A stretch of DNA of 4,701 nt from a virus. Its lineage: Duplodnaviria > Heunggongvirae > Uroviricota > Caudoviricetes. Position numbers and translations under genes: made by a program. Under the pieces are notes generated by a model that saw nothing but the letters and a program-made list of their open reading frames with translations, was not told the origin of the DNA and did not search any database. The DNA is taken from the IMG/VR virus record IMGVR_UViG_3300023290_000109; one strand, given 5' to 3'. Shown here in pieces: positions 1,053 through 3,879 of this stretch. The first letter of the stretch is position 1. Each line of letters starts with the position of its first letter.

Positions 1053-1088
1053 CTCAAAAAATGGAAAAACCCGCTCGACGGCGGGTTT
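1053..1088 (-). terminator. Rho-independent terminator on the minus strand, about 130 nt upstream of the holin start; candidate tR'-like late terminator
   Basis: Perfect 8-bp stem AAACCCGC (1067-1074) / GCGGGTTT (1081-1088) with a 6-nt loop. Read on the minus strand it is followed by TTTTTCCATTTTTT. The plus strand has no U-tract after the stem. Confidence 0.55.
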
Positions 1089-1243
1089 AAGCTGTGTGAC
1101 GAAGTAACCACTCTTAACAGCATAACCAATTTTTTACGTACGTAAACTACTAAATGATATTTGTGAGAATGCCACCGAGTGTTCAAAACACCACCACAAA
1201 TGCATAAGAAAACTTCAACAAATAACCAGTTAATAATTTCCAA

Positions 1244-1514
1244 TGTTATTTTTAGTTTGTTTAAATTAAGCTAAAGAATTATAGAGCACTTATAAATAAG
1301 TGCCATTAATATAAATTAGCTAATAGATTTATTTTTGTTCAGACAAGAGCCATGAATAGGATTAGATAGAAAAGGTTCAGATAAAAATAGAGATCTACTT
1401 CACAAATTAAATGAGAAACTAAAACTTACATCTTGAAATAATCACATTGATTAGATGAATATTTATCGCGCAGTGACATCATTTTTTAATAATAGTTCAA
1501 AAAAAGGGCGTACA
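1244..1514 (+). promoter_or_regulatory. AT-rich upstream regulatory / promoter region and 5' UTR of the porin gene; exact -35/-10 not resolved
   Basis: Strongly AT-rich relative to the flanking genes. TTGAAA at 1433-1438 is a possible -35 but I could not pair it with a convincing -10. AAGGG Shine-Dalgarno at 1504-1508 lies about 6 nt before the porin ATG. Contains the dyad GCACTTAT-AA-ATAAGTGC at 1286-1303. Confidence 0.35.
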
Positions 1515-2597
1515 ATGAAAAAATTAACAGTGGCAATTTCTGCTGTAGCTGCATCAGTACTGATGGCGATGTCTGCTCAGGCAGCTGAAATTTATAATAA
1601 AGACAGTAACAAGCTGGATCTATACGGGAAAGTTAATGCCAAGCACTACTTCTCCTCTAATGATGCAGATGATGGTGATACTACTTATGCCCGTCTTGGC
1701 TTCAAAGGTGAAACCCAAATCAACGATCAACTGACTGGTTTCGGTCAGTGGGAATATGAATTCAAAGGCAACCGTGCTGAATCTCAAGGTTCTTCCAAAG
1801 ACAAAACCCGTCTTGCATTTGCAGGCCTGAAATTTGGTGATTACGGCTCAATCGATTACGGCCGTAACTACGGTGTAGCATACGACATCGGTGCGTGGAC
1901 TGACGTTCTGCCAGAATTCGGTGGTGATACCTGGACCCAAACAGATGTGTTCATGACTGGTCGCACTACTGGTGTTGCAACTTATCGTAACAACGACTTC
2001 TTTGGTCTGGTCGATGGCCTGAACTTTGCTGCTCAGTATCAGGGTAAAAATGACCGCACTGACGTAACTGAAGCCAATGGTGATGGTTTCGGTTTCTCCA
2101 CTACTTATGAGTATGAAGGATTCGGCGTGGGTGCAACCTATGCTAAATCAGATCGCACTGACGGTCAGGTCGCCTATGGTAAGAGCAAATTCAATGCCTC
2201 CGGCAAAAATGCGGAAGTATGGGCTGCAGGCCTGAAATATGATGCGAACAATATCTATCTGGCTACCACATATTCTGAAACTCAGAATATGACCGTTTTT
2301 GGTAATAACCATATTGCAAACAAAGCACAAAACTTTGAAGCAGTAGCACAATATCAGTTTGACTTCGGTCTGCGTCCATCTGTTGCTTACCTTCAGTCAA
2401 AAGGTAAAGACCTTGGTGTTCATGGTGACCGAGACTTAGTCAAGTATGTCGATGTCGGTGCTACTTACTACTTTAATAAAAACATGTCCACTTTTGTTGA
2501 TTACAAAATCAACTTAATTGACGATAGTAAGTTTACCAAAACAGCTGGTATTGATACCGACGACATCGTCGCTGTAGGTCTGGTTTATCAGTTCTAA
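1515..2597 (+). CDS. nmpC: OmpC-family general diffusion porin, prophage-encoded (NmpC / Lc / OmpD-like), intact
   Basis: The track ORF starts at 1455, but the real start is the ATG at 1515 preceded by an SD: [23 protein letters not shown] | AEIYNKD... This is a 23-aa signal peptide with an AQA cleavage site, then a mature N-terminus [16 protein letters not shown] and C-terminal ...VGLVYQF ending in Phe, the hallmark of 16-strand enterobacterial porins. Conserved blocks GFGQWEYEF and [23 protein letters not shown] are present. The location between Q and the lysis genes in opposite orientation is the known position of nmpC in DLP12 and lc in PA-2. Confidence 0.93.
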
Positions 2598-2608
2598 TCT
2601 GACTTACG

Positions 2609-2648
2609 AAAAAGATATGTTGCGGGAGGCTTTGCCTCCGCAACATAT
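2609..2648. terminator. Long near-perfect hairpin; intrinsic terminator for minus-strand transcripts leaving Q, also a stem-loop in the porin 3' UTR
   Basis: ATATGTTGCGGGAGGC (2615-2630) / loop TTT / GCCTCCGCAACATAT (2634-2648), with a one-base bulge. On the minus strand the stem is followed by CTTTTTCG (the A-run at 2609-2613 on plus). On the plus strand it is followed by AAGTGGAG with no U-tract, so it is weak as a plus-strand terminator. Confidence 0.5.
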
Positions 2649-2734
2649 AAGTGGAGCCCTCAAGCCACTTCCTTTAGAAGCACTACCTTGCTTCTTACTA
2701 TATAAACCTTCTGTTATATATTACCCTTTATTTT

Positions 2735-2762
2735 GGGGGCGTTTCCACGCCCCATTTTTAAT
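2735..2762 (+). terminator. Rho-independent terminator of the porin transcript
   Basis: GC stem GGGGCG (2736-2741) / CGCCCC (2748-2753) with loop TTTCCA, followed by ATTTTTAATAACTTTT. It ends about 25 nt before the convergent Q stop codon. Confidence 0.55.
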
Positions 2763-2785
2763 AACTTTTAGTAAACAATTGCATA

Positions 2786-3169
2786 TCAATTAGAATTATT
2801 AGCAACGATATCCATATCTAACCGGATATCTAATGCCATTAACATCCCTTCAATTATGCCCTCAGCCTTCTGTAACCTTTTCCCGATATAACCATCCGAG
2901 CAGCAATGCTTACTTGCCAGTGACATGAATGTCATACCACATACATAATAATCTACTAATAAATCGTGTAAATCGCTGTTGTTCTTTTTCAGACGGGCCA
3001 TGCACCCGCAAATGATCATCGCGTCATCGTCACAACATTGCGGGCGAGATTTTACTTTTGAAGGAATTAATCCCTTAAAACCGGCGGCAATGGACGACCA
3101 GGTCACATCTTCATGATTATTAGCCGCCCACGCACCCCAACGCTCAAGAACCATCTGAATATCACGCAT
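2786..3169 (-). CDS. quuD: Late-gene antiterminator Q (quuD-like, phage 21/82-type Q family)
   Basis: [34 protein letters not shown]...[19 protein letters not shown]...[13 protein letters not shown]... Cys-rich zinc-binding-like motifs; it matches DLP12 QuuD as I recall it, in the expected position downstream of rusA/ylcG. The track ORF (132 aa) starts at a TTG at 3184. I prefer the ATG at 3169..3167 (127 aa), which has GGAG 8-9 nt upstream. Confidence 0.88.
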
Positions 3170-3254
3170 CAACTTACTCCACAAAAATCAGACCAGAACG
3201 CCAATTACAAGCAAAAATCAACAAAACAGTATTAGTTGATTGTTATCTCTGACT

Positions 3255-3395
3255 TCATACTCCTGTTCCTGTCAGGGTTTTGGCGTAATTCTTCAGTATT
3301 CGGTAATCGGTCAAAACAGAACCGAGGAAACGATATAAGCGCAGACGCCCCCAGCGGTGGCGAAGAAGTTCTGCCATATTAAACTCAAACATCAT
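3255..3395 (-). CDS. ylcG: Small protein YlcG-like (46 aa), between rusA and Q
   Basis: Not in the ORF track (too short). Minus-strand translation from ATG 3395..3393: [46 protein letters not shown], stop TGA at 3257..3255. Its start overlaps the rusA stop (ATGA). Matches the DLP12 small ORF ylcG as I recall it, in gene order and sequence. Confidence 0.7.
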
Positions 3396-3754
3396 TCATT
3401 CCCCATTTCGGTGATGGTCAGTTCCAGCCTCCCACCTTTGGTAACAGGCATCTTCACAACGCGGTAATCAACGACCTGAGCATCATCCAGCCAGAAACCT
3501 GCTTTAGTGAGTGCGTCAAAAGCGGCTTTTTGCAGATTATCCAGGTCACGGCGACGGCGATCCGGCATGTGGCACTCAATGCGGATTTTCACAGGCATAG
3601 CCAGGCCGATATCCAGCATTGCGTTTTTAATGATTCGGGCGACGTTATCGCGGTATGCCTGCCCCTCTGCGCTGACGTGCGTGCGCCCGCGATTATGGCG
3701 GTAATAGCGATTATTGCTCGGAGGCCAGGGTAATGTGATGCTGTAGGTATTCAC
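3392..3754 (-). CDS. rusA: RusA Holliday junction resolvase (crossover junction endodeoxyribonuclease)
   Basis: 120-aa [123 protein letters not shown], which I recognise as RusA. The start codon is GTG (3754..3752), overlapping the stop of the upstream ybcO-like frame (GTGA). Confidence 0.93.
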
Positions 3755-3879
3755 GCCTTAATAACCCCCTCTTTCAGCCACATAACCTGTGTTCTCGCCA
3801 TACCTTCCAGCGCGCATTCTTTTGCATATGCAGCATCGACTTGCTTGGCATGCCCTTTACCGGCAATCTTCTGTATGCG
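3751..3879 (-). pseudogene. ybcO: 3' remnant of ybcO (DUF1364-type nin-region gene), truncated at its 5' end; no usable start codon
   Basis: The frame ending with TGA at 3753..3751 translates ...[42 protein letters not shown]. The last ~25 residues match the C-terminus of DLP12 YbcO as I recall it. The frame is closed upstream by two in-frame TAG codons (3880-3882, 3886-3888), and the sequence upstream shows no YbcO-like N-terminal region in any frame. Confidence 0.5.

What the first reader, a model, noticed from the sequence alone, without database searches (positions are those of the whole stretch)
2598..2785. Highly structured porin 3' UTR convergent with Q: candidate IpeX-type regulatory RNA
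The 188-bp gap between the porin stop and the convergent Q stop holds four stem-loops, including a 15-16 bp near-perfect hairpin and a GC-stem/U-tract terminator. A 3' UTR immediately downstream of prophage porins nmpC/lc has been reported (ipeX) to inhibit OmpC/OmpF expression post-transcriptionally. Here the porin is intact, so the UTR would be made in the lysogen.
Basis: partly seen in the sequence, partly recalled or inferred. Interest (0 to 1): 0.55.

Follow-up and report, generated by a model that had tools for sequence, protein, structure and literature searches.

The report
Phage porin tail RNA IpeX
The structured stretch after this prophage porin gene is an allele of the known regulatory RNA IpeX, which turns down the host porins OmpC and OmpF, and its sequence suggests it works by direct base pairing with their ribosome-binding sites, which reviews of the original study say was not found.

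Summary
The 188-bp gap (2598-2785) between the stop of an intact Lc/NmpC-type porin and the stop of a convergent Q gene folds into stable hairpins plus a G+C-stem/U-tract terminator (z = -5.4).

The gap is 93.7% identical to the lc downstream sequence of phage PA-2 and about 94% identical to the nmpC-quuD spacer of K-12 prophage DLP12, where ipeX was defined. It is 100% identical in 19 sequenced temperate phage records and occurs in about 2500 of 5426 complete E. coli genomes. The element is already known.

Three results are new.
- The porin, its promoter, the 3' UTR and the last Q codons form a cassette (about 1150-2810) inserted between Q and its late promoter/terminator (1146-1056, minus strand).
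- P1/P7-like phage-plasmids carry a divergent homologue with the same hairpin order and compensatory changes.
- IpeX 2701-2733 is complementary to the ompC leader (-31..-3, covering the Shine-Dalgarno sequence and overlapping the MicC site) and to ompF (-13..0, the MicF site). The strength equals the MicC-ompC and MicF-ompF controls, and ompA and the phage porin itself show nothing.

Secondary sources say the 2006 study found no complementarity. The pairing model (about 0.6) can be tested by compensatory mutation.

The parts
1515..2597 (+). Intact Lc/NmpC/OmpD-type porin gene (360 aa including signal peptide). Its mRNA carries the 3' UTR studied here.
   Evidence: Pfam Porin_1, E 1.9e-151, full length. 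100% identical to porins of phages 2G7b, ev017, ev207 and Perceval, and 90.7% to PA-2 Lc.
2598..2762 (+). IpeX-type 3' UTR RNA: from the base after the porin stop codon to the end of the terminator U-tract.
   Evidence: 93.7% identical to PA-2 lc downstream sequence and about 94% to the K-12 DLP12 ipeX locus. Fold z -5.4. No plus-strand promoter-like site between the porin start and the gap. No Rfam family matches.
2615..2648 (+). HP1: 15-bp hairpin with one bulge. On the minus strand it is followed by CUUUUUCG, so it may also terminate Q-direction transcripts.
   Evidence: -22.5 kcal/mol, z -5.9; minus strand -21.9, z -5.9. The G/C polymorphism at 2640 only moves the bulge. P7-type homologues keep a hairpin here with a different sequence, and L122 has a G-C to A-U double change.
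2649..2670 (+). HP2: hairpin whose loop core CCCUCA is invariant in all homologues. CCCUC is complementary to the GAGGG Shine-Dalgarno sequence of ompC and ompF.
   Evidence: Three of 8 pairs change on both sides between lineages (A-U to G-C, G-C to A-U, U-A to A-U), and 96% of cells are paired. The loop is conserved in alignment A2.
2676..2695 (+). HP3: 7-bp hairpin, 10-11 bp in P7-type homologues.
   Evidence: -7.8 kcal/mol, z -4.1. Three pairs change on both sides, and 97% of cells are paired.
2701..2733 (+). Proposed target-pairing segment: A+U-rich, weakly structured, lying between HP3 and the terminator. 2705-2719 pairs with ompC -21..-7, 2725-2733 with ompC -31..-23, and 2714-2727 with ompF -13..0.
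   Evidence: 15 contiguous pairs with ompC (5 of 1000 shuffles reach this). Local alignment of the reverse complement with the ompC leader scores 32, z 5.5, 2 of 3000 shuffles; no window among 5352 windows of real DNA reaches 32. Accessibility-corrected energy -15.5 kcal/mol. 2704-2727 is the longest invariant block among 23 alleles.
2736..2759 (+). Intrinsic terminator of the porin/IpeX transcript: stem 2736-2753, U-tract 2755-2759.
   Evidence: Terminator scan hit. -13.8 kcal/mol. Allelic differences lie almost entirely in the loop. P7-type homologues have a different G+C stem followed by a U-tract at the same place.
2786..3169 (-). Convergent late-gene antiterminator Q (QuuD type, 127 aa). 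Its last 7-8 codons belong to the inserted cassette.
   Evidence: Pfam Phage_antitermQ, E 6.7e-54. Homology to Q genes of porin-less relatives stops at about window 2811.
1056..1146 (-). Late promoter, leader and terminator (pR'/qut/tR'-like) that belong to this Q type: TTTACG, 16 nt, TATGCT, then GTTAAGAGTGG, then hairpin 1088-1067 with a U-tract. This marks the left edge of the porin cassette.
   Evidence: In porin-less relatives from Shigella, Trabulsiella, Pantoea, Citrobacter, Xenorhabdus, Providencia and Morganella the same motif lies about 20-60 nt after the Q stop codon. The terminator is also found by the scan.

Best explanation
The gap is an allele of ipeX, the 3' untranslated tail of a phage-borne porin gene (type lc/nmpC).

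The porin, its own promoter and this tail form a self-contained cassette (about 1150-2810) inserted between the phage's Q gene and Q's late promoter. The host RNA polymerase transcribes the porin from its own promoter in the lysogen and stops at the terminator at 2736-2759. Every porin transcript therefore ends with about 165 nt that contain three conserved hairpins, an open A+U-rich segment and the terminator hairpin. This tail lowers synthesis of the host porins OmpC and OmpF, either attached to the mRNA or after processing. The phage porin thus replaces the host porins.

Proposed mechanism (inferred): the open segment 2701-2733 pairs directly with the ompC leader from -31 to -3. That region includes the Shine-Dalgarno sequence and the known MicC site. 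The segment pairs more weakly with ompF from -13 to the start codon, which is the MicF site. Pairing would block ribosome binding.

My estimates: identity with ipeX about 0.97; repression of OmpC/OmpF by this allele about 0.8 (by homology); direct pairing as the mechanism about 0.6.
For: Identity with ipeX:
- End-to-end alignment with the PA-2 lc downstream sequence (93.7%) and with the K-12 DLP12 nmpC-quuD spacer.
- 100% identity in 19 phage records.
- Present in about 2500 of 5426 E. coli genomes.

Function of ipeX, from the literature.

Cassette:
- Q relatives in other genera have no porin and no ipeX.
- They carry the conserved late promoter/terminator motif right after Q. In the window that motif lies at 1146-1056 on the minus strand.

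Structure:
- z -5.4.
- P7-type homologues keep HP1, HP2, HP3 and the terminator despite diverged sequence.
- 96% of cells are paired, and 8 pairs change on both sides against 1-2 in slid controls.

Pairing:
- A run of 15 pairs with ompC -21..-7 (5 of 1000 shuffles).
- Antisense alignment score 32, z 5.5 (2 of 3000). ompF 23, z 2.6 (82 of 3000). ompA and the phage porin's own leader are not significant. The opposite strand is not significant.
- Controls on the same scale: MicF-ompF 29, z 4.0; MicC-ompC 32, z 5.3, at -30..-15.
- Energies after opening costs: IpeX-ompC -15.5, MicC-ompC -14.7, MicF-ompF -14.5, IpeX-ompF -5.7 kcal/mol.
- No score of 32 or more in 381 kb of real DNA.
- Six of seven divergent homologues keep significant complementarity to the ompC and ompF start regions. 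The P7 type shares the 12-nt MicF core.
- The segment is the longest invariant block among the alleles.
- The ompC leader is at least 99% identical in 5359 of 5371 genomes that have it.
- As I recall the original abstract, repression of ompC did not need Hfq and repression of ompF did. This fits a long ompC duplex and a short ompF duplex.
Against: - Three reviews report that the original study found no complementarity between ipeX and ompC, or that pairing is not involved. I could not read the original paper, so I do not know whether this segment was examined or mutated.
- No expression data for this allele were available. NmpC-type porins are described as quiescent in some strains (reference title cited).
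- Both partners are A+U-rich. Shuffles keep overall composition but not local composition. The real-DNA background partly answers this, but it is not a whole-genome target ranking.
- Energy-only duplex tests had no discriminating power, not even for the MicF control.
- One homologue (L123) has a 6-nt deletion in the segment and only weak complementarity.
- The covariation rests mainly on two clades, so on few independent events.
Confidence: 0.7

Rival explanations
1. IpeX acts indirectly, as the original authors concluded. The structured RNA would titrate or recruit a protein or another RNA (for example through the invariant CCCUCA loop of HP2 or the long HP1), and the complementarity to ompC and ompF would be incidental.
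For: Reviews state that no base pairing with ompC or ompF is involved. HP1-HP3 are conserved with compensatory changes, so the structure itself is under selection. The HP2 loop is invariant.
Against: The complementarity is as strong as that of the validated MicC-ompC and MicF-ompF pairs. It lies on the ribosome-binding sites and is absent for ompA. It persists in diverged homologues, although in a shifted register.
Confidence: 0.3
2. The gap is only a pair of terminators for two convergent transcription units. 2736-2759 would stop the porin transcript, and HP1 read on the minus strand (followed by CUUUUUCG) would stop transcripts leaving Q. There would be no trans-acting role in this allele.
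For: The terminator scan hits 2736-2753. HP1 on the minus strand is stable and followed by 5 U. The U-tract is kept as 4-5 U in the lambdoid alleles.
Against: Two terminators do not explain HP2, HP3 or the invariant A+U-rich segment. The P7-type homologues keep HP1 but have UCUUACC after it on the minus strand, so there is no U-tract. The same UTR follows porins that are not convergent with any gene. The homologous K-12 and PA-2 sequence has a published trans effect. A terminator role for HP1 may still exist in addition to the regulatory role.
Confidence: 0.1
3. The gap holds the Q-utilisation site and late promoter, as does the region just downstream of Q in lambda. Late transcription would then run antisense through the porin gene.
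For: Position only: in lambda the late promoter lies directly after Q (established knowledge).
Against: In porin-less relatives from at least seven genera, the motif that follows Q (TTTACGTACGTAAAAA..TAnnnT..GTTAAGAGTGG..hairpin-U run) corresponds to window 1146-1056 on the minus strand, not to the gap. No minus-strand promoter-like site lies in the gap.
Confidence: 0.02
4. The gap encodes a small protein: the 58-aa ORF at 2617-2793 on the plus strand, or the 'ORF1' annotated on the minus strand in the PA-2 record.
For: The ORFs exist.
Against: Single-base indels that differ between common alleles (an extra T near 2731 in 15 of 23 alleles, an extra G near 2782) shift the frame of 2617-2793. 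The start codon lies inside the HP1 stem. The variation pattern follows RNA stems, not codons.
Confidence: 0.02

Closest known systems
IpeX (ipeX) of E. coli K-12 cryptic prophage DLP12 (qsr') and phage PA-2; Castillo-Keller, Vuong and Misra 2006, J Bacteriol 188:576
   Same: Same locus (directly after the nmpC/lc-type porin stop codon and before the convergent Q/quuD gene), same strand, same length, 93.7-94% identity, same hairpins and terminator.
   Different: About 11-12 substitutions or indels. Nearly all are in loops or linkers, or only shift a bulge. Here the porin is intact, whereas K-12 nmpC is cut by IS5. The 2701-2733 segment is identical in both alleles.
MicC, a trans-encoded antisense sRNA next to ompN that represses ompC
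   Same: The predicted IpeX site on ompC (-31..-3) overlaps the MicC site (-30..-15). Both RNAs contain the blocks GUUAUAU and CCUUUAUU. The alignment score (32) and the corrected energy (about -15 kcal/mol) are the same.
   Different: MicC has its own promoter, and its seed is at the 5' end. IpeX is the tail of an mRNA, its two blocks are split by 5 nt, and its pairing extends over the Shine-Dalgarno sequence. Direct IpeX-MicC similarity is not significant.
MicF, a trans-encoded antisense sRNA next to ompC that represses ompF
   Same: IpeX 2714-2727 targets the same ompF sequence (AGGGUAAUAAAUAA) as MicF. The P7-type homologue shares the exact 12-nt MicF core UUAUUUAUUACC.
   Different: In the window allele the ompF duplex is short (13 of 14 positions, -5.7 kcal/mol after opening costs). 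There is no independent promoter.
3'-UTR-derived regulatory RNAs that share the terminator of their parent mRNA (established class, for example CpxQ and SdhX; named from my own knowledge)
   Same: Lies between the stop codon and the mRNA's own terminator. No internal promoter was detected. A review describes processing from a longer precursor.
   Different: The parent gene is a phage cargo gene, and the targets are host competitors of its own product. Processing has not been shown for this allele.

Membership tests
IpeX | Lies directly downstream of the stop codon of an nmpC/lc-type prophage porin, on the same strand | tested here: met
   Porin 1515-2597 (+), Porin_1 E 1.9e-151, 90.7% identical to PA-2 Lc. 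The UTR starts at 2598.
IpeX | Sequence similarity to the published ipeX loci (K-12 DLP12, PA-2) | tested here: met
   93.7% over all 188 nt to J02580.1 2590-2778. Colinear alignment with NC_000913 574340-574528.
IpeX | Ends at a Rho-independent terminator shared with the porin mRNA, giving an RNA of about 167 nt | tested here: met
   Predicted terminator 2736-2759 gives about 162-165 nt from the stop codon. The 167-nt figure is from a review. The 3' end was not mapped experimentally.
IpeX | Lowers OmpC and OmpF, but not OmpA, after transcription | not testable with these tools
   Indirect support only: complementarity to the ompC and ompF start regions and none to ompA.
IpeX | A stable RNA accumulates in cells | not testable with these tools
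   The literature reports ipeX signal in clinical isolates and in K-12 RNA-seq. There is nothing for this allele.
Base-pairing antisense sRNA of the MicC/MicF kind | Extended complementarity to the translation initiation region of the target mRNA, beyond chance | tested here: met
   ompC: score 32, z 5.5, 2 of 3000 shuffles, and 0 of 5352 real-DNA windows reach it. ompF: z 2.6, 82 of 3000. Equal to the MicC and MicF controls.
Base-pairing antisense sRNA of the MicC/MicF kind | The pairing segment is accessible and conserved | tested here: met
   Opening cost 4.6 kcal/mol, and loop residues 2706-2713 are mostly unpaired. 2704-2727 is invariant in 23 alleles. The segment lies in an unstructured stretch in all homologues.
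Base-pairing antisense sRNA of the MicC/MicF kind | Own promoter, that is, an independent transcription unit | tested here: not met
   No plus-strand sigma-70-like site near 2450-2600. A review says it is made from the porin promoter. It may therefore work like MicC/MicF, but it is a 3'-UTR element and not a member of that gene class.
Base-pairing antisense sRNA of the MicC/MicF kind | Regulation lost by seed mutation and restored by a compensatory target mutation | not testable with these tools
   This is the decisive experiment. See the next steps.
Lambdoid moron (cargo cassette with its own promoter and terminator inside the late region) | Absent from otherwise colinear relatives, with definable junctions, its own promoter and its own terminator | tested here: met
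   Relatives go from Q straight to the late promoter motif. Junctions lie near 1150 and 2810. The promoter region is conserved with PA-2 lc and P7 nmpC. The terminator is at 2736-2759.

The most novel reading that the evidence does not exclude
IpeX is not an exception to antisense regulation. It would be a MicC/MicF mimic built into the 3' UTR of mobile porin genes. Two lineages carry it: the lambdoid lc/nmpC cassettes and the nmpC of P1/P7-like phage-plasmids. Both hold, between conserved hairpins, an open segment that reads as the reverse complement of a host porin start region. The lambdoid type matches ompC -31..-3. The P7 type matches ompF -13..+8 and ompC -6..+11, including the AUG. The element would then silence the host porins by occluding their ribosome-binding sites at the same places as MicC and MicF. 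It may have arisen from an inverted copy of a porin 5' end. This would overturn the 'no complementarity' view repeated in reviews since 2006.
Probability: 0.55. Interest if true: 0.55.

Novelty: already known. Interest (0 to 1): 0.42.

Why it matters
Nearly half of complete E. coli genomes carry an ipeX copy, and 678 carry this exact allele. OmpC and OmpF are the main entry routes for beta-lactams and the receptors of many phages. As I recall, OmpC is the receptor of PA-2.

A phage cassette that installs its own porin and silences the host's would change both antibiotic permeability and superinfection immunity.

The mechanism of IpeX has been regarded as unexplained. A defined duplex of about 27 bp on the ompC ribosome-binding site turns that question into a simple mutational experiment. 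It would also let the effect of natural alleles be predicted from sequence, including the P7-type variants on 116 plasmids.

Neither Rfam nor the current K-12 RefSeq record annotates the element, so it goes unseen in genome annotation.

Tried and rejected
- Rfam scan of the whole window at E up to 10: only chance hairpin hits, none at gathering score. There is no IpeX family.
- The original 2006 paper could not be retrieved by PMC id or by DOI. Its claims are taken from reviews and from my memory of the abstract.
- Global RNAduplex energies, and RNAduplex in 28-nt windows, against shuffles: no power. Even the MicF-ompF control gave z -1.2 and -2.1. I replaced them with run-length and local-alignment statistics plus opening energies. 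One search timed out.
- Covariation among the lambdoid alleles alone: 23 alleles but only about 6% divergence. Variation avoids stems (5 of 22 recurrent sites fall in stems, where about 10 are expected), which is weak evidence. Useful covariation came only with the P7-type homologues.
- Search for ipeX next to Q relatives in other genera: none has a porin or ipeX.
- HP1 as a terminator for Q-direction transcripts: plausible in the lambdoid context, but the U-tract is absent in the P7 type. It is at most an added role.
- Late promoter or qut site inside the gap: rejected.
- Small ORF 2617-2793: rejected because of frame-shifting indels among alleles.
- 'Salmonella phage SPF_0923' porin hit: it is the chromosomal ydbK-ompN-uspF region, so it is not informative.
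- Direct IpeX-MicC similarity: not significant.

Full report
**What the window is.** The window is the late-region junction of a lambdoid prophage.
- On the minus strand lie a lysozyme (214-711), a P21-type holin (711-926), a Q antiterminator of the QuuD type (2786-3169), RusA (3392-3754) and a NinX-like gene.
- On the plus strand, pointing against them, lies a complete porin gene (1515-2597).
- The whole window is colinear with K-12 prophage DLP12 (about 91-97% identity) and with the 2.8-kb PA-2 lc record (90.8%).

**Check of the observation.** The gap between the porin stop and the Q stop is 188 bp (2598-2785).
- Its plus strand folds at -56.6 kcal/mol, against -33.95 +/- 4.2 for dinucleotide shuffles (z -5.4).
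- Folded one at a time, HP1 (2615-2648, 15 bp plus a bulge), HP3 (2676-2695) and the terminator (2736-2753 plus a U-tract, also found) are each well above chance.
- HP2 (2649-2670) is marginal in this allele. HP4 (2699-2720, A-U pairs only, -2.1 kcal/mol) is barely a structure.
- The description is therefore correct.

**Identity.**
- The gap aligns end to end with the K-12 spacer between nmpC and quuD. It also aligns with the sequence after lc in the original PA-2 record (93.7%).
- Reviews place ipeX in these two places and describe it as a 167-nt RNA made from the porin promoter as part of the porin transcript. It lowers OmpC and OmpF.
- The exact sequence of the window occurs in 19 phage records, including Lambda_4C10, 4A7, ev017, ev207, 2G7b, D2 and Perceval. 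It also occurs in 678 complete E. coli genomes. The roughly 94% allele occurs in about 1750-1820 more.
- Rfam has no family for it, and the current K-12 RefSeq record does not annotate it.

**Context: a cargo cassette.**
- Relatives of this Q protein were found in Shigella, Trabulsiella, Citrobacter, Pantoea, Xenorhabdus, Providencia and Morganella. None has a porin or any ipeX-like sequence.
- In most of them, about 20-60 nt after the Q stop codon, comes a conserved motif: TTTACGTACGTAAAAA, then a TAnnnT hexamer 16 nt after the TTTACG, then GTTAAGAGTGG, then a hairpin with a U run.
- In the window this motif lies 1.6 kb away, at 1146-1056 on the minus strand, just before the holin. Homology to the porin-less Q genes stops near 2811, inside the last codons of Q.
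- So about 1150-2810 (porin promoter, porin, 3' UTR and a new Q C-terminus) is an insertion between Q and its late promoter.
- This excludes the idea that the gap holds the Q-utilisation site.
- Convergence with Q is an accident of where the cassette landed.

**A second lineage and the structure.**
- A protein search with the porin found nmpC of phage P7 and of P1-like phages (81% identity).
- Its 233-nt 3' UTR, here convergent with ssb, is a diverged homologue of ipeX. It occurs in 116 plasmid records, with variants down to 81% identity.
- Every variant folds into the same order of elements: HP1, HP2, HP3, an unstructured A+U-rich stretch, then the terminator.
- On the joint alignment, 96% of cells are paired in the consensus helices, against 40-60% when partners are slid. 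Eight pairs change on both sides, against 1-2 in slid controls.
- These changes reflect mainly two clades, so they are few independent events. They are consistent in HP2, HP3 and the terminator. HP1 is kept as a hairpin with a different sequence.
- HP4 is not conserved.
- The HP2 loop core CCCUCA is invariant.
- Within the lambdoid alleles, recurrent substitutions fall mostly in loops and linkers.

**Mechanism.** A scan for pairing with the two published targets gave an unexpected result.
- IpeX 2705-2719 (AACCUUCUGUUAUAU) forms 15 consecutive pairs (14 Watson-Crick, one G-U) with ompC -21..-7 (AUAUAACAGAGGGUU). This includes the Shine-Dalgarno GAGGG. Five of 1000 dinucleotide shuffles reach this length.
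- Next to it, 2725-2733 pairs with ompC -31..-23.
- The reverse complement of IpeX aligns with the ompC leader at score 32 (z 5.5, 2 of 3000 shuffles). It aligns with ompF -13..0 at score 23 (z 2.6, 82 of 3000).
- It does not align with ompA, which is reported as unaffected, or with the phage porin's own leader. The opposite strand gives nothing.
- On the same scale the validated pairs score 29 (MicF-ompF, z 4.0) and 32 (MicC-ompC, z 5.3). The MicC site (-30..-15) lies inside the predicted IpeX site.
- After subtracting opening energies, the duplexes are -15.5 (IpeX-ompC), -14.7 (MicC-ompC), -14.5 (MicF-ompF) and -5.7 kcal/mol (IpeX-ompF).
- None of 5352 windows from 381 kb of real enterobacterial DNA reaches 32.
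- Six of the seven UTR variants tested (two lambdoid alleles and five P7-type sequences) have significant complementarity to the ompC and ompF start regions. In the P7 type the register moves to ompC -6..+11 and ompF -13..+8, and the segment contains the exact 12-nt core of MicF.
- The segment is the longest invariant block among 23 lambdoid alleles. The ompC leader is nearly invariant in E. coli.

**How this sits with the literature.**
- Three reviews say the original work found no complementarity, or that base pairing is not involved. I could not obtain the paper itself.
- The longest exact match is 10 nt, which default word-based comparison would miss. That may explain the discrepancy, but this is my conjecture.
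- As I recall the abstract, repression of ompC did not need Hfq while repression of ompF did. That fits a long duplex on ompC and a short one on ompF.
- I rate direct pairing at about 0.6. The published indirect model is the main rival.

**Other readings.**
- HP1 on the minus strand is followed by CUUUUUCG and could stop transcripts leaving Q before they run antisense into the porin. The P7-type UTRs lack that U-tract, so this is at most an extra local role.
- The 58-codon ORF at 2617-2793 is broken by indels among the alleles.

**Verdict.** The element is the known ipeX in an allele attached to an intact porin. The added value is the cassette anatomy, a second lineage with covariation, and a concrete, testable pairing model for a regulator whose mechanism has been regarded as unexplained.

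Noticed in passing
window 1056-1146, minus strand: Likely late promoter, leader and terminator of the QuuD-type Q. It includes a perfect 14-bp palindrome TTTACGTACGTAAA (1133-1146), which contains a TTTACG -35-like hexamer. A TATGCT -10-like hexamer follows 16 nt later (1124-1119), then GTTAAGAGTGG, then hairpin 1088-1067 with a U run. The motif is conserved directly after Q in at least seven genera. The old PA-2 record annotates part of it (TGTGACGAAGTAACCA) as a CRP site.
   Followed up: partly
window about 1150 and about 2810: Junctions of the porin cassette. The right junction lies inside Q, so the cassette supplies the last 7-8 codons of Q (...[10 protein letters not shown], against ...EMDKYIEHP in porin-less relatives).
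   Followed up: partly
L119 2017-2199 (phage P7); L121-L124 (plasmids): A divergent ipeX homologue lies after nmpC of P1/P7-like phage-plasmids (116 plasmid records). Its reverse complement reads GGTAATAAATAACATGAAGTTAAA, which looks like a porin start region with an ATG. It also shares the 12-nt core of MicF.
   Followed up: yes
window 2657-2662 (loop of HP2): The loop core CCCUCA is invariant in all homologues although the stem covaries. CCCUC is complementary to the GAGGG Shine-Dalgarno sequence of ompC and ompF. It could be a second contact site or a protein-binding site.
   Followed up: no
L073 about 3061-3764: One viral contig has an insertion of about 700 bp in the 5' part of ipeX, at about window 2609-2618 and just before HP1. 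It carries a 169-aa ORF that looks like an IS200-type TnpA (recognised from memory, not tested).
   Followed up: partly
L001 (NC_000913.3 574340-574528): The current K-12 RefSeq record lists no ipeX feature between nmpC and quuD, although it lists micF and micC as ncRNA elsewhere. Rfam 15 has no IpeX family.
   Followed up: yes
window 1386-1406 and alignment A3: The porin promoter region is conserved between the lambdoid cassettes and P7 nmpC. P7 has a perfect CRP-type palindrome TGTGATTTTGATCACA where the window has AGAGATCTACTTCACA. This matches the second CRP site annotated in PA-2.
   Followed up: no
L003 (phage 434 isolate 434B): This 434 stock carries the DLP12 version of the region, including nmpC cut by IS5. 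The depositors annotate it as a region of non-homology, so it was presumably picked up from K-12 by recombination.
   Followed up: no
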